Source: the human T2T-CHM13v2.0 reference genome, Homo sapiens
Assembly: GCF_009914755.1 (NCBI RefSeq)
Contig: NC_060933.1
Length of the DNA: 64,000 nucleotides
Strand: one strand, 5' to 3'
Below are positions 3,035 through 64,000 of this stretch, in pieces; within the stretch, counting starts at the first letter, position 1, and each line of letters starts with the position of its first letter. The notes beneath the pieces are model-generated. The model was given only the letters and a program-made list of their open reading frames with translations, was not told where the DNA came from and made no database searches. Made by a program: the position numbers and the translations under genes.

Positions 3035-3299
3035 TAAAAAAAAGAAAAAACAAAATTAAAACTGTAAAATTAAAAGTTTACCAAATGCTTACAATAACTC
3101 ATGCCTGGCCATTTTTTAAAAATAAAATACAGGTTGAAATTAGTACAAATCCATTCAGACCTTACCTAAACAGAAAGAACCAAGCTGTAACATTTGATGA
3201 CAGTTTGAAAATATCTATTGGAATAATGGTACAATCTATAAGATACTGAGGCTTAACTCTATAAAAGATATCATCAGCAAGTATGGGTAAGGTTGCTAA

Positions 3300-46462: not shown

Positions 46463-47093
<631 letters not shown>

Positions 47094-49680: not shown

Positions 49681-50077
49681 TTTCAGGAAAATATGTTTTT
49701 AGAAAAATACCAAGAGGCACTGCTTTGGGGTACAAAGTGGGACTGTGAGGCATGATCCCACAGGGGAAAAGGAAGCAAAAAAACATGTTCACATTTTCAC
49801 CTTCATAGAATCAGAAATTTGAGAGCACAATTCAAGAATAAAGGAGACAAGCAAAAAACATGGCAGGAAATGACCAACTGACTTTTTACAAACAGGGGTA
49901 TCTAATATTCAGAGTTATATTTTTTTTGTGTGCTCCAATAGAATCCTTTGTGTCATTGCAAGCCATCAGTAAAATCTTATATGTGTACAAACACCTCATG
50001 GGAACATGTGTGTGCGTGTGTGTGTTTAAGTCAAGAAAAAAGGCTCTGTTCTATTTGTAGGTCAATAAGATACAAAA

Positions 50078-50446
<369 letters not shown>

Positions 50447-51039
50447 TCACTAGAGAGCATAGTTACCCAGGAATTCACAGAAACCTTGGGGAGGGCATTG
50501 GAAATTCCAGATTGTGCAATGAGAGCATTGGATCCATTTTGTCTAGCTTTCCTGGGGTCAATGCAGATTGACTTCAACTACGAGGTCTTCAGGCTTAACC
50601 ACTGCCAACCCATAGAGTCATGTATAGAGATGTAAAACAGTGGTAAGAATAAAGAAGAGACACCAAGAAATTACATTGCTTTCCAGGGTTTTCCTCTGTC
50701 TTCTATGCAATTTTTAGTGCAATTCTGCTAATATATCTTTTCTCCTCCTCTGTACCTCCTTTATAGGATATAATGGTTTCAGTGGTCAGTCACATAGAAT
50801 GCCACTCTTCAGACTGGGCTGAGAAAGTGTTATACATTATTTTTTTCCCATTCTGCAAACAAATCCTTGTTTTTAAATCTAACTGATTGGCATGGCTCTC
50901 ATAAACAACCACCTGTCTCAGACCCAGAATGCCTTATCTCTTCACTTATTCCAATTTCAACTGGTGTACTGAAGCTTTCTTCAATTAATAATAACAATAG
51001 TAATCTTTGTATGAATATCTACCTAAATTATTTCCCATG

Positions 51040-51215
51040 TATTATCTTCGAAAAGACCCAGTAACGCAGGCAGGGCAAGTATTAATATTGCAACCACTTA
51101 TAGATGAGAACATTTAAGTTTTGAGCGGACGGTATAAAGTCATGCTGTAAATGGTAGAGCCAGAATTTGAATCCAGATATTTAATGTTAAAAAGCCTCCC
51201 TTTTCCATTATACCG
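51040..51215 (-). mobile_element. MIR
   Basis: taaatggtagagccagaatttgaatccaga. Confidence 0.7.
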
Positions 51216-51467
51216 CTTTTCTAAGCCTCCTTCCACGTGGATCTAAATAGTCCATGATTCGGTGACTTTGGGAGCCACAAATATGTTTTAAGCAATGGCA
51301 GTATCTTTCTAGGGACCCTCCCTCAAGAAGTAGACCCTGAGACAAGGGTTTGAATGCAAATACAGACATACCTCAGAGATATTGCAGGTTCAGTCTCAGA
51401 CCATTGCAATAAAGCAAGTCACACATTTTTTTTCATTTCCCAGTACATATAAAAGTTATGTTTATAT

Positions 51468-52823
<1,356 letters not shown>

Positions 52824-52984
52824 TCTATTTTTGTCCTCACAGCATGCAGTCTACCCTGAAGTACCTCTAGAATTTTTCTATCAGGAGGGATTACGACAGC
52901 AATCTGGATGAAAATAGAGCCCAGGAAACTTGTCTTAAGAGATATGTGTGTATAGAAAGCACATTAAAACAAATCAACAAACAA
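52824..52984 (+). other. L1 3'-transduced sequence with ATTAAA and A-rich tail
   Basis: Lies between the L1 end and the second copy of the 17-bp TSD aaaagttatgtttatat (51451-51467 and 52985-53001). Confidence 0.8.
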
Positions 52985-53534
52985 AAAAGTTATGTTTATA
53001 TCATACTGTATTATATTAAGTATGCAATACCACTGTGCCTAAAAAAGCAATGTACATACCTTCATTTTAAAATATCTTGCTGCAAAAAAAAAAAAAAATC
53101 TTGTCGCTAAAAAAGGCTACCAATCATCCAAACCTTCAGCAAGTTGTAATCTTTTTGTTGGTGGAGGCTCTTATATCAGTGTTGATGGCTGCTAACCAGG
53201 ATGGTGGTTGCTGAAGGTTGGAATAGCTGTGGCAATTTCTTAAAGTAATAGTGGGGTTTGCTGCATCAGTTGATTCTTCCATTCAGGAAAGATTTCTCTG
53301 AAGCATAAGATGCTGTCTGATAGCATTTTCTCTATATAACTTCTTTCAAAATTGGTGTAAATGCTCTCAAACTCTGCTGCTGCTTTATTAACTAAGGTTA
53401 TGTCATATTTTAAATCCTTTGTTGTGTCATCTCAATAATGTTCACAGCATCCTTACCAGGAGGAGATTCCATCTCAAGAAACCACTTTCTTTGCTCATCC
53501 ATAAGAAGCAACACCTCAACTGTTCAAGATTGTG

Positions 53535-53851
53535 TTTTCTTTTTTGAGACAAGATCTTGCTCTGTTGCCTAGGCTGGAGTGCAGTAGTATGATCATGACT
53601 CACTGCAGCCTCCATCTCCTGGGCTGAAGCAATCCTCCTGCCTCAGCCTTCCAAGTAGCTGGGACTACAAGCACATGCTATCATACCCAGCTAATTTTTT
53701 AAAAAAAACTATTTTAATAGAGATAAGGTCTCACTATGTTGCCCAGGCATGTCTCAAACTCCTGAGCACAAGTGATCCTCCTGCCTCAGCCTCCTAAAGT
53801 GCTGAGATTACAGTCATGATTACTAGGATTACAGGGCCACTTCACCGGGCC
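53535..53851 (-). mobile_element. AluJ in Tigger1
   Basis: TSD ctgttcaag. Confidence 0.88.
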
Positions 53852-53871
53852 CTGTTCAAGTTTTATCATGA

Positions 53872-54346
<475 letters not shown>

Positions 54347-54771
54347 CCACAAATGTTCTTAGTGACATCCAGATTGGTGACTCCTTTCCAGAAGGTTTTC
54401 AATTTACTTTGCCCAGATTCACCAGATTTACTATCTATGGCAGCTATAGCCCTATAAAATGTATCTCTTAATAAGACCTGAAAGTCAAAATTATTCCTTG
54501 ATCCATGGGCTGCAGCTTGGATGTTGCATTAGCCACTATAAAAACACTAATCTCCTTGTACATCTCTATCGAGCTCTTAGGGTGCATTGACAATGCACAG
54601 TAACATTTTGAAAGAATTCTTTTTTTCTGAGCAGTAGGTCTCAAAAAATGGGCTTAAAATATCCAGTTATCAAGCTGTAAACAGATGTGCTATTATCCAG
54701 GCTTTGTTGTTCCATTGATAGAACATAGGCAGAGTAGATTTACATAATTCTTAAGTGCCCTAAGATTTCCA

Positions 54772-54827
54772 GAATGGTAAATGAACACTGGCTTCAACTG
54801 AATGGTAAATGAACACTGGCTTCAACT
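54772..54827 (+). repeat. Perfect 28-bp tandem duplication
   Basis: gaatggtaaatgaacactggcttcaact x2. Confidence 0.95.
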
Positions 54828-54849
54828 GAAAGTGACAAGCTACATTAGC

Positions 54850-55008
54850 TTTATATATATATTATATATTTATATATATAATATAATATTTATATATTAT
54901 ATATATTAGCTTTATATATAGCTATAAATATATATAATAAATATATATAAATAAATATATACATATATAAATAAATATATATAAATAAATATGTGTGTGT
55001 GTATGTAT

Positions 55009-55040
<32 letters not shown>

Positions 55041-55446
55041 CCCCCGAGACAGGATCATGTTCTGTCACCCAGGCTGGAGTACAGTGGTATAACCATAGCT
55101 CACTGTAGCCTTGAAATCCTGGACTCACGTCATCCTCTGGCTTCAGCCTCCTAAGTAGCTGGGACTACAGGCATACGCCATCACCTTCAACTAATTTTTT
55201 CTTTTTCTTTTTTGAGACAGAGTTTCACTCTGCTGCCCAGGCTGGAGGTAGTGGCGCGATCTCGGCTCACTGCAACCTCCGCCTTTGGGTTCAAGTGATT
55301 CTCCTGCCTCAGCCTCCCAAATAGCTGGGATTACAGGTGTGTACCACCATGCCCAGCTAATTTTTGTATTTTTGGTAGACAGGGATTACAGGCGTGAGCC
55401 ACTGCGCCTGGCTAATTTTTTCTGTCTTTTGCAGAAATAGGGTCTC
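54850..55446 (-). mobile_element. TA-rich tract plus AluJ with nested, internally deleted AluS; left arm lost
   Basis: AluJ right arm 55045-55200, AluS 55205-55412, AluJ stub to about 55446. Confidence 0.8.
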
Positions 55447-55779
55447 TAACCTGGATTAGGCTTTGGCCTAAGGGAATGTTGTGGCTGGTCTGATCTTTCT
55501 AGAACACTTAAAAAACTTTCTTCCTATGACCAATATGGTTGTTTCACTTTCTTATCCATGTATTCATTGGAGTATCACTTTTAATTATCTTCAAGAACTT
55601 TTGCCTTCCATTCATAACTTCTTAACTGTTGGGTACAAGAGACCTAGCTTTTAACCTGTCTTAGCCTTACACATACCTTCCTCACTAAGCTTAACAATTT
55701 CCAGCCTTTGATTTAACATGAAAGACTAATGACTCATCCTTTCACTTGAACAGTTAGAGGCCATTGCAGGGGTTTTTAC

Positions 55780-56304
55780 ATTATATATACATATATAAAA
55801 TATATAATATATATATAAAATACATATAATATATATGCTGCTTATATCAAAGGACTTTTAAATAATCCTATAATATACGTGAAAGGGCTCTTAAAATTGT
55901 AAAGCTATATTCTATTCCAATTATTATTAGAGAAAATGAGCATGATGTCTGTGTATAATATATATATATTATATATATGTATATATTATATATAGTATAT
56001 ATAGTAGTATATATAATCATATATTATATATACTATATATAATATATATTAAATATAGTATATATATTATATATAGTATATATATTATATATTATATAGT
56101 ATATATAGTATATATTATATATAGTATATATAGTCTATATATTATATATTGTATATAGTCTATATATTATATATATTACATATAGTCTATATATTATTAT
56201 ATATTACATATAGTATATATATTATTATATATAATATATAGTATATATTATATATACTATATATAATTTATATATTATTATATATATATATTATAATATA
56301 TATA
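55780..56304. repeat. TA-rich low-complexity tract (AluJ tail) containing a templated insert
   Basis: Near-pure TA/TATAG units either side of 55835-55957. Confidence 0.9.
55835..55957 (-). repeat. Inverted copy of 57466-57593
   Basis: Reverse complement aligns with 3 substitutions and 4-nt plus 1-nt indels. Confidence 0.95.
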
Positions 56305-56570
56305 TTGGAGACAAGGTCTTGCTCTGTCACCCAGGCTGGTTGTTGCCAACCTCTCTGCCTCCCAGGCTTAAGTGATCCTCTCACCTCAGCCTCCCAAGGA
56401 GCTGGGACTACAGGTGTGTGCCACCACACCTGGCTGATTTTGGGGTTTTTGGTAGAGACAGGGCTTTTCCACATTACCCAGGCTGGTCTTAAACTCCCAA
56501 GCTCATGTGATTTGCCCACCTCAACCTCCCAAAGTGATGGGATTACAGGCGTGAGCCACAGCACCTGGCC
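56305..56570 (-). mobile_element. AluJ in Tigger1
   Basis: Antisense dimer. Confidence 0.87.
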
Positions 56571-57826
56571 ATCGCAGTTATTAATTGGCCTAATTTCAAT
56601 ATTGTTATGTCTCAGGAAATAGGGAGGCCTGAGGAGAGGGAGAGAGATGAGGGAATGGCTGGTTGGTGGAGCAGTCAGGACACACACATTTATCCATGAA
56701 GTTTGCCATCTTAGTCATCTTATATGAGCGTGTTTCATGGCACCCCCAAACAATTACCATAATAACCTCAAAGATCACTGATTACAGATCACCATAACAG
56801 ATACAGTAATAATATGAAGTTTGACATATTGTAAGAATTACCAAAATGTGACACAGAGACACAAAATGAGCACATGCTGTTGGAAAAAATGACACCGATA
56901 GACTTGCTTGACGCAGGGTTGCCATGAACCTTCAATTTGTAAAAAACAAAAGCAGTATCTGCAAAGCACAATAAAGCAAAGCAAAATAAAATAAGTTGTC
57001 TCATTACACTTTATTTTAGGAGGTCTACAGTTTATTTTAGGCGATGAAGAAGATCCAGGAGAATGGGGAAATGTCAAGGAGGGAAAAGGCAACCAATAAA
57101 GTCTGAAATTAAGATAGCTAAGATTCTAAGTGACTGAAGCATAATCTTTGTAATCTCTCTGGGGAAACTCTGGGAACCTGTGAAGGACACGAAGCTCAGT
57201 TATCCCACCTGAAAGGCGAGGGAGCTGGGGTGTGCCTAAACTCCAGCCAGTCTTTGGTTAACGGCTGCTCCCAGTGAGTGTAATTCTGGCAATATTTCCG
57301 GCAGACTGGACAGCAAAACTGGCTCAGGTAGTGAGAGAAAGCCCTCAGGGAAGAAATACAAGTGCTGGCAGCTGGCAAGTGGGCCCGTGTGCACTGAAGT
57401 GGTACAGATTAAGGAATATGAGTGAGGCACCAAAGCATCTTCGTGGAAATTTCAATGGAACAGCCTATACACAGACATCATGCTCATTTTTCTCTAATAA
57501 TAAATAATTGGAATAGAATATAGCTTTACAATTTTAAGAGCCCTTTCACATATATTATAGGATTATTAAAAAGTCCTTTGCTATAAGCAGCATTATGAAT
57601 ATGGAAAAATCAGGGATAAAAATAAATTGGTCACTTGCATTGAATGCTCTCTAGAAAGTACAAATTTTATCTCCTGAGGATTATCATAAATTTAAAAGTT
57701 CTTGTTTTCTTACACCAAATTAATTATTCTAAATTACAGTCTTCCTTATTTTGAGAATTTTCAGACCTTTCTTTGGTGGGGCAGGCAAGGGAGTAGGGAA
57801 ACAGGAGCTGTGGGTGATGAAGACCA

Positions 57827-58117
57827 TTTTTTTCTTTTCTATGGAGTCTGGTTCTGTTGCCCAGACTGGAGTGCAGTGGCACAGTCTTGGCTCATTGCAA
57901 CCTCCGCCTCTCAGATTCAAGTGATTCTCATGCCTCAGCCTCCTGAGTAGCTGGGACTACTGGTGTGCACCACCACACCCGGCTAATTTTTGTATTTTTA
58001 GTAGAGACGGGGTTTCACCATGTTGGCCAGACTGGTCTCAAACTGCTGACCTTGTGATCCACCTGCCTCGGCCTCCCAAAGTGCTGGGATTACAGGTATC
58101 AGCCACTGCACTCGGCC
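57827..58117 (-). mobile_element. AluSg/Sc-like
   Basis: TSD tgatgaaga(c/g)catttt. Confidence 0.9.
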
Positions 58118-58811
58118 TGATGAAGAGCATTTTAAAACCCCAATCTAAAACCTCTTTTTCAGAACTATACAAGCTAGTATAGCACTTTATAACCTCATTT
58201 TAAAAAAAGATTAATTAGCTTCTGGAATCAGAAAACATAAACAACGTATGGATTAAGTCAAATCAATTCAAATCAATAAGTCAATTGCTATTCAGTTGTT
58301 CACTTATGTACATTTTACATCACATTATACAGTAGAATAAATATTTTCTTCGTAAAGTAGTGTAAATCAAAGTGTTTTTCCTTCCCCTTCTCCAAGGTCT
58401 GGTGAGATGAACTTACTTCAATGCAGCCACCACTGAAAAGTATGGAAAAGCTCCAGGAAAGTCATAAGTAGGAGATTTTCTGTTTATTAGCTTGTTTTTC
58501 AGGGCAGCTAAATGAATGGCAACTCTGGACAACCACTTTCAAGGGATTATCCCTAATGGATTAGACTGTTTTAAAAAACCCTCCTATCTAAATTCATTGA
58601 TTCCTGGTTAATGCAAAGGAGTGACTCTGCTGCCACTACACTTGAATGAGAAACTAATGACACAGATTATAAGAATTTAGTCAAGATACAGAGTTTCCTG
58701 TATGTCATATTTTTGTGTTATCATAAAGATAAATAAAATATTAAGACATTAAAAGTTTTACATTTAAAAATCTGCTTTAAAAGATATTAAATCTTATTAA
58801 TGTGCTAGTAA

Positions 58812-59381
<570 letters not shown>

Positions 59382-59852
59382 TAATTCTGACATAAGTGGA
59401 GAAGCACTGTGATTAAAAAATGCAATCAGGATTTTTTTTTTAAGGAAAACTGAGCACCAAGGATTTGCACTACAGATTAAATGTTTTCTGAAACCATGGG
59501 ATTTTCCTTTCAGCTGTTCCTTTGTTGTTTGTCTTGCCTTCATCCTTTCTAGTTTAAACATCAAAATGAAAACACAAAGGCAGCATGTTTGGGGACAATA
59601 GAATACATTTGGACTGAAAGTGTCATGAGAATGAGGCTGTACTGGACAGGACAAAAGGTGCACTTGCTCTCATTTGCTGTGGTTCACCAGGTGTGCCAGC
59701 TTCCTGGAGAACCATCACTTTAAGGTACTACAGGCCAAAGAAAAGAAATGGGCCAACTTTAATCAGAGTTCCACAGACTCAAGTGTTCACTGCTAATTCA
59801 CTTATAAATTGGCACATTATCAAAAATAAAAACTCCTCAAAAATTATCTACA

Positions 59853-59960
59853 AGTCCCAGCTACTTGGGAGGCTAAGGCAGCAGGAGGATCACTTGAGTT
59901 CAAGTCCAGGCTGGGCAACATACCAAGACCCTGTCTCTAAAAAAGAGAGGAAATAAAAAA
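59853..59960 (+). mobile_element. Truncated FLAM
   Basis: Monomer fragment. Confidence 0.78.
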
Positions 59961-60049
59961 AAGTAATTCATGGCCTGATACTTAATTGCTAGGTGTAGAT
60001 CCACCTATAGAACATAAACAATTCCTTATTTTTTTTTTACATTTCTTTA

Positions 60050-60190
60050 GGGCACTAAGTATTCCCAATTAAGATTATTATTTAATCTTCATAGTAAACC
60101 TCTAAGGTCAACAGAAAGGATAATTATCTACCTTTAACTGGTGATGAAACGGTGGCTCAGGGATTAATGTCTAACATTTCAAAAGCTACC
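60050..60190 (-). mobile_element. MIR
   Basis: tttaatcttcatagtaaacctctaaggt...gatgaaacggtggctcag. Confidence 0.6.
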
Positions 60191-61440
60191 CTTCATATCC
60201 CCCTTGTACTGTTAATTTTACTAGTTTCTTCTCTAATATAATAAAGATACATGAGGAAAACATAAAGTCACAGCTTTGAATTATAAGGCTATCGTATTGA
60301 TAGGATTGATTGCTTTCAAATAAGGCAACAAAATGGAAAAGTCTTATTTTTTTGGAACACGTTCTTTCTTTATGTTAATTCAATTTTCAGGAAGCTTTCA
60401 GTTACCAAGGAAGGGAAGGGTGCAGAGATAAAAATGAAAGACATATTCTCTGCCTTTCAGAGATGTCCAATCTAACAGATAAGAGAGCAGATAGCTTCTT
60501 AGAAGGTAGATCTATAATGCAGAAGGCCTTTGTTTCTGGGGGATCTTCTTCCTTTACAATACTCTGCATGGCACTCTTTGTTGAGAGAACTACCTAGAAC
60601 TGGGAGGATTAAAAGGGACAGTACACAGCAATATCTCTCATGTCTCACTCCAAGTACCGGAGTGAGGCTTTGAGGGAAAACACTGGGAAAGATCCAAACG
60701 ACTGGTGCAAACAGCTCTTATTAGGCTTTTCTTACATTCTTTTATATTCTTTTAATCATTATTATTATTATTTGCCTTTTTTCTCCTGGGAAGACCATGG
60801 CTTCTCTAAAGCACAAGAATGCCAAGTCCAAATGTGACCAAAATAAGGGCTTAAATAGTGCTAAAGACACCCTAGTCATACTCCCACCAATACAGCCTGT
60901 TTCCAGCATTTCAAACAACAGTTCCACACTATTTCTTCATACTCAAATTAACTATTAACCCAGAATCTTTTTTGTTTTTTTAATGTTATGCTCAGAGTAT
61001 CTCATGACTTGAAGTGTTCCTTAACTGGGTGTTTGGGCTACATTTATATCTACACTGCCTTCTAATTATGTATGTATTTGTCTGGAAGGATTTATTAGAC
61101 CTAAACTATTGCATGTTTCCTCCTATTCTGTTTCTGGTGTTGATTAACCTGTTCCTTCATTTTCAGAGTCACTCTAAGTTCTATTCTGTATCTCCCCAAT
61201 GTTTGCAACTGCTCAACTTTTTGTCTTTGTTCTCAAAGGGAACACTTCCATATTCATCATCTCAGTCAATGATGGTTATCAAACTACACTAAGCTCAAGG
61301 CTGATTGATGCATACTACCACTTCATATATTCCCCCTCAATTTCTCACATTGCTGATGAGTCATTTAGAAACCACTGACTCAACACTAGCAAAACTTGGG
61401 GATATATTGCTCTGGTTCTTGAAAATTCATGAATTCTTAA

Positions 61441-61986
<546 letters not shown>

Positions 61987-62149
61987 TAATAAGTTTAATT
62001 ATCAAGTTTCCTAGATCATCTGAGTAGAAATACACAAAAAGCAAGTTGGAGCAAAAGAAACAAACTCACAGTAGTTAAGTAGCAACAGCTGACAATATGA
62101 AAGGACAACAGAGGAAAGCAGAGAATAAACGTAAGAATCTAAAAAAGCA

Positions 62150-62960
62150 AAGCAGCCCGAGGTCCATTAACATAAGAGCAGCTGTAATCCTGTAGCCCTT
62201 GTGCTGAGTACCAGGAGAGAAAAGAAAATATTTGGAGAAATAATGGCAGAAAACTTTCCAATTTTATTAGAAAGCAATAACCTATACATCCAAGAAGCTT
62301 AATGAATGCTCCGGAAAAAAAGCAAAGATGCCCACAAGCAGATACTTTATAGTATAAATACTGAAAGTCAAAGACAAGGAGAAGTTTTAAAATCAGCAAG
62401 AGAAAAACAATGCATCATTTACAAAGGTACTTCAATAAGATTTAAGATTAACACCTTACTTCTCATCAGAAACCATGGAAGCCAGAAGGCAATGGGAAAA
62501 CATTTCATATGCTCAAAGAAAAAAGTAGGCAACCAAGAATCTTATATACAGTAAAGCTATCTTTCAAAAGCGAAGATGAAATAAATACTTTCCCAGATAA
62601 GCAAAACTGAGAATTTGTTAGCAGACTCATTTTACAATACTAAACGAAGTTCTTCAGGCTGAAATCAAGTGACCCTACAGAAATATGAATCTACGGGAAC
62701 AAACAACATTGATAATTATGTAATGATGAATGCATATTTTTCCTCCTTTAATTGATTTAAAAAAGCAATTTCAAATAATATGTATATAATGGATTGTTGG
62801 GCCTATATAACATATAGAAATGTAATGTATGTGTAGTATAATAGCACATAGGAAGTGAGTAAAAACAAAGCTGTAATGGGCTAAGGAAATGACTACAGAT
62901 GGTAAAGTAGTAACTATAACAATGCATTGTTGAGTTTTTAACATTAATATATTATGTAGG
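62150..62960 (+). mobile_element. Old L1M ORF1 and downstream fragment
   Basis: aaataatggcagaaaactttccaa, cttctcatcagaaaccatggaagccagaaggcaatgg. Confidence 0.82.
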
Positions 62961-63269
62961 CATTGCCTAAAAAGTACTTTAGACCTGTTACTCAGTGAGG
63001 GTAAGTTTCAGATATTATTATCCTATTCATTACACTCCCTATCAAAACAAAACACAAAATTCAATATTGCTCACCCAAATAAAGGAATCCTCCCCTCCTC
63101 CAGCTACTTTTATTTGCTGCTCTGATAGCCAGGCTAAAAACACATTTGAGAATTACTTCTCCTTTATCTATTCTTGAGTCTTATGATTTCAGAAGTCCAG
63201 AAGCCAGTTTCTGACAGTGAAAACCAGGAGACAGCAAAGAAATAGGTTTCCCCCCTTCTTTTCTACCAT

Positions 63270-63500
63270 AAAAAATAACACACCAACATAAAAGATACCT
63301 TTCTAAGTAGGTCAAGGAAAAAAACTCACCCATAATCCTATTGCCTCAACACAATCATTTGTTTCATTGTATTTATTTCCTTCTGCTTTTATTCCATAGA
63401 CACTTACATTTTATTTTACAGAGGTGTAATCATTTATACTCTCTTTTTCATTTAGGATTACACTGAATACTTTAGCAAGTTTAATTATCATTTTTGACAG
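63270..63500 (-). mobile_element. L1ME 3' end fragment
   Basis: aaaaaaactcacccataatcc motif. Confidence 0.5.
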
Positions 63501-64000
63501 CACCAGATATATTTAGGGATATATAAACTATTTTCTTTTGTCTCCCTCCCTTCTGCCCATTCTATTTCCCGGGGATGGGCCTTGAAGGCTTGGAGCCCAG
63601 ACTTCTAGACTTAAAAGAGCTCAAAAAGTAGCAAATTCTCACTTTGGTGAAGTAATATAGATGGCCTCTGACTTTACCAAAGTTATTAGGTGTTCAAATA
63701 GAAACACAAGTTTCATTTAAGATTCATAACATGAGAATGCTAATTATAAGTTTTGATTTATAGTCTATGAATTCACCATACATAGTGCCCCTATATTCGT
63801 AAACCTACCTGCTACCCTCTCTACTTCTTTTCTTCTTCAAAAACCAGAAGACTGAATCTACTTCAATATACTGCCTTAAGTAGTTGTTTTAGAGGAAAAA
63901 GAAATCCAAATTTTGAATTAATCAAGTACTACAGTGGCTGAAACTTGCATTTTATTAGGAGATAAAAATGATCTAAAAACAGCATTTCCCCATTTTTCTA

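What the first reader, a model, noticed from the sequence alone, without database searches (positions are those of the whole stretch)
55835..57593. 123-bp inverted templated insertion inside a (TA)n tract, copied from 1.5 kb downstream
Seen: 55835-55957 is the reverse complement of 57466-57593 (3 substitutions, 2 small indels). It is embedded in the TA-rich tail of an AluJ, with AT and TATA microhomology at the junctions and no TSD or poly-A. Established: long (TA)n tracts extrude cruciforms and stall or break forks, and templated insertions arise by template switching or Pol theta end joining. Inference: scar of a break in the TA tract patched from nearby DNA; the resulting inverted repeat brackets a 1508-bp spacer that could invert.
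Basis: partly seen in the sequence, partly recalled or inferred. Interest (0 to 1): 0.7.

Follow-up and report, generated by a model that had tools for sequence, protein, structure and literature searches.

The report
Inverted DNA patch inside TA repeat
A 123-base piece of human DNA sits flipped inside a long TA repeat, 1.5 kb from the only other copy found, likely a scar from a stalled or broken copying fork, and the same layout occurs at several other long TA repeats.

Summary
Confirmed. 55835-55957 is the reverse complement of 57466-57593 (3 substitutions, 4-bp and 1-bp gaps); genome-wide searches find only these two copies. The left copy lies between an old Alu and that Alu's target-site duplication, inside a transposon whose 19 of 19 other copies read straight through. 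So it is the derived copy, and much younger than the Alu. It fits a described class: short germline inverted duplications placed within 5 kb of their source. Its size and distance lie outside typical Pol theta patches, so replicative template switching or long-resection fold-back is likelier. The spacer is not inverted in this haplotype, and the arms look too short for recurrent inversion. New here: 4 of 36 other long TA tracts carry 5 inverted local copies (35-154 bp) in or at the tract, against a 1.2% cross-locus null (P about 0.001). But the contrast with purine-tract controls (0 of 12) is not significant. The locus is an ordinary member of a known class; a TA-tract bias for such scars is a testable lead not found in 10 literature searches. 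Ape orthologues and human haplotypes were not available.

The parts
55835..55957 (+). Inserted copy, 123 nt, reverse complement of 57466-57593
   Evidence: two copies found genome-wide
57466..57593 (-). Donor (template), 128 nt; no other match in the genome search
   Evidence: the old dispersed repeat to its left stops at 57443 and does not extend into it
55778..55836 (.). Left part of the TA-rich tract (Alu tail)
   Evidence: 55782-55836; starts directly after the left target-site copy
55954..56305 (.). Right part of the TA-rich tract, 352 nt, imperfect units in both orientations; predicted to fold into extensive hairpins (-63 kcal/mol, DNA parameters)
56305..56570 (-). Old Alu (J-type by recalled diagnostics) whose tail is the TA tract
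   Evidence: at most 81%, median 75% identical to 86 other Alu matches in the fetched pool
55763..55777 (+). Left copy of the Alu target-site duplication (decayed)
   Evidence: uninterrupted host copies carry this 14-nt target once; both window copies share a T-to-C variant
56571..56582 (+). Right copy of the Alu target-site duplication (decayed), followed by AA as expected for an L1-endonuclease site on the minus strand
53852..56996 (.). Host dispersed repeat (Tigger2-like DNA transposon by recall), in pieces 53852-54062, 54348-54849, 55451-55771, 56577-56996
   Evidence: 4179 first-look candidates, 40 scored, about 80% identity; pieces collinear in other copies
55958..57465 (.). 1508-nt spacer between the arms, in ancestral orientation

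Best explanation
This is a derived, inverted copy of a neighbouring 128-base stretch lying inside the TA-converted tail of an old Alu, likely made in one germline event when a DNA 3' end stalled or broke in the TA tract, primed on a short AT/TATA match 1.5 kb away, copied about 125 bases backwards and rejoined the tract (a two-switch, microhomology-mediated template switch). Shown: two copies found, inverted; polarity; younger than the Alu; AT and TATA overlaps; no spacer inversion. Inferred: the stall or break, the single event, the polymerase. Two geometries give the same product: (a) a leading strand stalled at about 55836 jumps to single-stranded lagging template 1.75 kb ahead; (b) a right-hand end in the tract, resected by at least 1.6 kb, folds back onto its own strand at the self-complementary TATA (57466-57469). 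TA arrays would favour both, because any 3' end in them is self-complementary and finds AT/TATA anywhere. At 2.4% divergence (95% CI 0.5-7.1%) it likely predates the human-chimpanzee split and is probably fixed and neutral.
For: Polarity: 19 of 19 other host-transposon copies read straight through the site; the insert lies between the Alu 3' end and its target-site copy. Age order: arms differ by 2.4% while the Alu is at most 81% identical to other Alus and its target-site copies have decayed. Both donor ends fall on alternating A/T; chance 0.3% by 2-kb regional composition, 1.6% by donor-local composition (post hoc). Class match: inverted duplications under 1 kb inserted within 5 kb (PMC4617611, passage); inverted nearby template with microhomologies as the MMBIR signature, seen as germline variants (PMC8421209, passages). 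TA repeats stall, are cut and are repaired by microhomology routes (PMC13645644, passages, on extrachromosomal DNA; 10.64898/2026.01.20.700634, abstract, yeast). Recurrence: 4 of 36 other long TA tracts hold 5 inverted local copies: L047 75 bp, 99%, 406 bp away; L063 62 bp, 100%; L071 44 bp, 95%, and 146-154 bp, 97%, 1.36 kb away; L079 35 bp, 100%.
Against: No empty allele, ape orthologue or human haplotype was available, so junctions and any accompanying deletion are undefined. Microhomology to a TA array is cheap. The present tract has no long pure (TA)n run (13 nt at most), so its fragility at the time of the event is assumed. TA versus purine-tract loci 4 of 36 against 0 of 12, Fisher P=0.56; against all control loci 1 of 39, P=0.19. 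PMC13645644 saw no increased TA breakage on chromosomally integrated amplifications. One control locus (L008) has a 36-bp inverted local copy with no TA tract, so such copies do not need one.
Confidence: 0.68

Rival explanations
1. Two-step history: a long fold-back inverted duplication centred on the TA tract (arm about 1.6 kb) formed first, and the unstable palindrome then lost all of the new arm except its distal 123 bp.
For: Three surveyed events (L063, L071 44 bp, L079) are fold-backs that start in the tract and run straight into the adjacent flank. Long palindromes lose their centres asymmetrically (established knowledge, recalled).
Against: No remnant of the spacer's Alu or flank is found inverted in the tract (k-mer scan: no hits). 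It needs two events. L047 and the 154-bp L071 copy also start hundreds of bases from the tract.
Confidence: 0.12
2. Pol theta end joining of a two-ended break in the tract, with an unusually long, distant templated patch.
For: 2-4 nt microhomologies match the 2-3 bp peak reported for such patches; Pol theta repairs TA breaks on extrachromosomal DNA; 2 indels among 5 differences could be synthesis errors (not significant).
Against: Reported templates are typically under 10 bp net and peak within 20 bp of the break, although that study searched only 500 bp and inserts up to 20 bp.
Confidence: 0.12
3. RNA-templated patch (class 2 templated sequence insertion): a read-through transcript past ABHD17B supplied a cDNA that filled a break.
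For: No target-site duplication or poly-A, and microhomology, as described for class 2 (PMC5110952, passages). The donor lies about 7 kb past the 3' end of ABHD17B by the supplied annotation.
Against: That class is defined by distant donors; here and in all 5 surveyed events the donor is within 1.5 kb and inverted, which an RNA patch does not require.
Confidence: 0.04
4. Assembly or sequencing artefact (fold-back read).
For: AT-rich palindromic DNA is hard to sequence; two surveyed copies (L063, L079) are 100% identical to their source and could be artefacts or very recent alleles.
Against: The focal arms differ at 5 places and are 1.5 kb apart; an artefact would be identical and adjacent.
Confidence: 0.02
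5. The copy came in with the Alu at insertion and was later refreshed by gene conversion with the donor.
For: It lies inside the Alu's target-site duplication; conversion can homogenise inverted arms.
Against: Sharp ends with no older diverged homology beyond them; short arms; TA sequence on both sides.
Confidence: 0.02

Closest known systems
Germline inverted duplications ('Inverted Dup') of the 1000 Genomes SV map (Sudmant 2015, PMC4617611; passages read)
   Same: Under 1 kb, inverted, inserted within 5 kb of the other copy, not typically retrotransposition-linked.
   Different: Those are polymorphic calls; this one is in the reference and probably old. No TA-tract context is stated in the passages seen. 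The site table was not among the supplements held (searched one file, no hit).
MMBIR-type templated insertions (MMB-TI; Osia 2021, PMC8421209; passages) and short-range template switches (Walker 2021, PMC7954356; passages)
   Same: Inverted nearby template, microhomology at both junctions, germline; Walker reports AT-rich and poly(dA:dT) context and lengths up to 128.
   Different: Both methods need the template within 100 bp; here it is 1.5 kb away. Osia removed microsatellite calls, so TA-embedded events would be filtered out. Walker's enriched motifs are T-runs, not alternating TA.
Pol theta (TMEJ) templated insertions (Wilson 2024, PMC11541566; passages)
   Same: Priming and resolving microhomologies of 2-4 nt; fold-back class.
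   Different: Typically under 10 bp net and within 20 bp of the break.
TA-repeat fragility (PMC13645644, passages; Flex1(AT)34, 10.64898/2026.01.20.700634, abstract)
   Same: TA arrays as break sites repaired through their own microhomology.
   Different: Somatic, extrachromosomal or yeast data on deletions and small duplications; 'germline' does not occur in PMC13645644's main text; pure (TA)n rather than complex arrays.
Class 2 templated sequence insertion polymorphisms (PMC5110952; passages)
   Same: Patch without target-site duplication or poly-A, with microhomology.
   Different: Distant donors, proposed RNA intermediate.

Membership tests
Short germline inverted duplication (Sudmant 2015) | Duplicated stretch under 1 kb in inverted orientation | tested here: met
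   123 nt, inverted
Short germline inverted duplication (Sudmant 2015) | Inserted within 5 kb of the other copy, donor intact | tested here: met
   1508 nt apart; two copies found
Short germline inverted duplication (Sudmant 2015) | Not a retrotransposition product (no own target-site duplication or poly-A) | tested here: met
   junctions; the duplication at 55763-55777/56571-56582 belongs to the Alu
Short germline inverted duplication (Sudmant 2015) | Polymorphic among humans | not testable with these tools
   one human assembly only; 2.4% divergence suggests old and fixed
MMB-TI / short-range template switch | Inverted template with microhomology at both junctions | tested here: met
   AT and TATA overlaps; exact lengths need the empty allele
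MMB-TI / short-range template switch | Template within 100 bp (operational definition in both papers) | tested here: not met
   1.5 kb; works like one but falls outside the definition
Pol theta templated insertion | Short insert templated within about 20 bp of the break | tested here: not met
   123 bp from 1.5 kb (for the norm)
Pol theta templated insertion | POLQ dependence | not testable with these tools
   needs genetics
Class 2 TSIP | Donor at a distant genomic site | tested here: not met
   donor is local
Inverted-repeat-mediated (NAHR) inversion | Spacer inverted between the arms | tested here: not met
   host pieces outside and inside the spacer are collinear and on the same strand; other haplotypes not testable
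Cruciform-forming (TA)n fragile site | Long uninterrupted (TA)n or long perfect palindrome | tested here: inconclusive
   pure run 13 nt, perfect arm 15 nt, but the whole 352 nt is predicted to fold at -63 kcal/mol (no shuffle control run)

The most novel reading that the evidence does not exclude
Long complex TA arrays in the human genome are germline collectors of inverted, locally templated insertions: about one in ten (4 of 36 here) carries a 35-150 bp flipped copy of DNA from up to 1.5 kb away. They would be a fossil record of TA-tract stalling and microhomology repair in the germ line, systematically missed because microsatellite calls are filtered and existing searches look only 100 bp away; they would also be one source of short inverted duplications and of the interruptions that stabilise these arrays.
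Probability: 0.45. Interest if true: 0.72.

Novelty: new member of a known kind. Interest (0 to 1): 0.48.

Why it matters
The locus itself is intergenic, has no annotated function and is probably neutral. Its value is as a type specimen: the nesting (transposon, Alu, target-site duplication, tail) fixes the direction and relative age of the copy without an outgroup. If the TA-tract bias holds genome-wide, it links two separate literatures, TA-repeat fragility (somatic, yeast) and short germline inverted duplications of unstated cause, and makes germline TA fragility countable and datable from existing T2T human and ape assemblies.

Tried and rejected
Multi-copy repeat as the source of the match: rejected (2 of 2 candidates; the neighbouring old repeat ends at 57443). 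RNA gene: Rfam 0 matches in 53000-59000. Spacer inversion in this haplotype: rejected. Further templated pieces in the focal tract: none in a 14-mer scan against 50000-64000. Survey candidates rejected: L067's interruption is a multi-copy repeat, not a local copy; direct hits at L052 and L061 are 15-16 nt matches at the tract edge that look like retroelement target-site duplications; L043 and L048 hits are ordinary Alu pairs. Purine-tract control: underpowered; 2 of 12 loci had almost no unique flank and tracts were shorter (median 197 vs 469 bp). Polymorphism look-up: hg19 coordinate prefixes, derived from recalled offsets, gave no hit in the one supplement file held for PMC4617611; the site table was not held, so this says nothing. 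bioRxiv supplements of the inversion call set (10.1101/2021.12.20.472354; main-text passages only) could bear on the question and were not seen. A 2015 deletion-breakpoint paper recalled as reporting template sites at 2-6 kb could not be read; it is not used as evidence. PMC7025897 (passages) describes somatic local copy-and-paste events, a looser analogue. Locus search (listing only) showed nothing evidently on this site.

Full report
Observation. 55835-55957 is the reverse complement of 57466-57593: 128 columns, 3 substitutions, gaps of 4 and 1 nt. In the 64-kb self-comparison it is the only long pair above 91% identity; the other listed pairs are Alu-type or simple sequence. Genome-wide searches return just these two places (2 of 2 candidates). 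TA-rich arrays flank the left copy (55782-55836 and 55954-56305). The arrays are imperfect: longest pure alternating run 13 nt, longest perfect palindrome arm 15 nt, though the 352-nt part is predicted to fold at -63 kcal/mol.

Which copy is new. The region 53852-56996 is a dispersed repeat with 4179 first-look candidates at about 80% identity; by recall it is a Tigger2-type DNA transposon. Its pieces on either side of the Alu are collinear in other copies, and 19 of 19 fetched copies read straight through a single 14-nt target that the window carries twice, at 55763-55777 and 56571-56582. Between the two lie the TA array, the insert and a minus-strand Alu (56305-56570). The array therefore occupies the Alu's tail, and the insert is the derived copy. 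The Alu is at most 81% identical to 86 other Alu matches in the pool and its target-site copies have decayed, whereas the arms differ by 2.4% (95% CI 0.5-7.1%). The insert is thus far younger than the Alu. Against recalled human-ape divergences (about 1.2% chimpanzee, 3% orangutan) it likely predates the human-chimpanzee split, unless the differences are synthesis errors made at the event. The same collinearity shows that the 1508-nt spacer is not inverted in this haplotype. The longest perfect block between arms is 42 bp, short of the few hundred bases usually needed for homologous recombination (recalled), so recurrent inversion is unlikely.

Mechanism. Both donor ends fall on alternating A/T (AT and TATA). 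The chance of that is 0.3% by regional and 1.6% by donor-local composition, a post hoc figure. The simplest account is two microhomology switches: a 3' end in the array primes 1.5 kb away, copies about 125 nt backwards, and returns to the array. Either a stalled leading strand uses unwound lagging template ahead of it, or a resected right-hand end folds back on itself at TATA; the sequence cannot tell these apart. The stall or break is inferred.

Is it a one-off? I picked TA arrays by a 35-nt pattern: 233 matches, 100 listed, 45 distinct loci. I examined the first 36 of the 45 as 3-kb stretches (16, 20); 9, plus 6 loci and the unlisted matches, were not examined. After masking simple sequence, 4 of 36 hold 5 inverted local copies with an arm 0-17 nt from the array. 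L047 (chr1, 214.45 Mb): 75 bp, 98.7%, 406 bp away, 2 copies found genome-wide. L063 (chr2, 80.77 Mb): 62 bp of the adjacent flank, 100%, with a 6-nt exit microhomology. L071 (chr3, 179.77 Mb): 44 bp of flank, 95%, and a 154-bp Alu piece whose best match among 40 scored of 4123 candidates is the inverted Alu 1.36 kb away, 97% against at most 91%; that one closely parallels the focal event, though conversion between neighbouring Alus is not excluded. L079 (chr4, 152.71 Mb): 35 bp, 100%. One direct copy also lies near an array (L054, 115 bp, 92%, 19 nt away, part of a two-piece duplication). An independent 14-mer test found the same 4 of 36 against a cross-locus null of 1.2% of 1260 pairs (binomial P=0.0009). 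Only 1291 of 81,643 unmasked bases lie within 20 nt of an array, so four loci with abutting arms has a chance of about 1.5e-5.

Against the generalisation. Purine-tract controls gave 0 of 12 and transposon or old-repeat loci 1 of 27 (a 36-bp inverted copy at L008 with no TA array); Fisher P=0.56 and 0.19. The purine control is weak (shorter tracts, two loci without unique flank). The pattern may favour arrays already shaped by fold-back. Flanks of 1.5 kb miss more distant donors. Two of the five copies are perfect and unverified in reads. Causality could run partly the other way, with fold-back events building the array. PMC13645644 found TA breaks on extrachromosomal but not on integrated amplifications.

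Known versus new. The locus meets the tested features of the short inverted duplications of Sudmant 2015 (under 1 kb, within 5 kb; passage) and works like MMBIR-type templated insertions (PMC8421209) and short-range template switches (PMC7954356), while exceeding their 100-bp template limit. Osia et al. removed microsatellite calls, and Walker et al. report T-run and AT-rich context rather than alternating TA. Ten literature searches (listings and abstract starts, open-access library only) showed no paper describing inverted local copies embedded in germline TA arrays, nor this locus. Most subscription papers and the inversion site tables were not seen.

Verdict. A real, well-polarised, probably neutral member of a known class. 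The interest lies in the lead that long TA arrays collect such scars, which has within-sample support but no significant repeat-type control. Interest 0.48.

Noticed in passing
window 54772-54827: Perfect 28-bp tandem duplication (100%) inside the host transposon, about 15 nt from a second TA array; likely recent.
   Followed up: partly
window 54843-55451: A second TA array (54852-54992) plus poly-T and two Alu fragments replaces about 345 bp of the host transposon (copy positions 831 to 1177 in L014). The array contains a short direct repeat of its own left junction (near 54843 and 54903).
   Followed up: partly
window 46947-47076: Third TA array, again the tail of an Alu (plus strand); no templated copy found in it.
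   Followed up: partly
window 56335-56365: The focal Alu appears to have a short internal deletion or rearrangement near its 3' end (by recalled consensus).
   Followed up: no
window 57151-57443: Old dispersed repeat (65-78% identity to other places) inside the spacer; family not identified.
   Followed up: no
L071:1170-1841 (G000:C3, 179.766 Mb): One TA array with two inverted local copies (44 bp and 154 bp) and short repeated flank motifs; looks repeatedly patched.
   Followed up: yes
L054:1625-2761 (G000:C2, 35.459 Mb): Two direct local duplications (115 bp and 188 bp, both 92%) in swapped order beside a TA array; possibly one older multi-switch event.
   Followed up: partly
L072:1330-1390 (G000:C3, 196.913 Mb): Three short direct copies of the right-flank start embedded in the TA array.
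   Followed up: partly
L008:1463-1498 and 3179-3214 (G000:C7, 36.85 Mb): 36-bp inverted local copy (94%) 1.7 kb from its source with no TA array nearby.
   Followed up: no
L052, L061, L072: Several surveyed TA arrays also appear to be retroelement tails, two with 15-16 nt direct repeats at the array edge that look like target-site duplications.
   Followed up: partly
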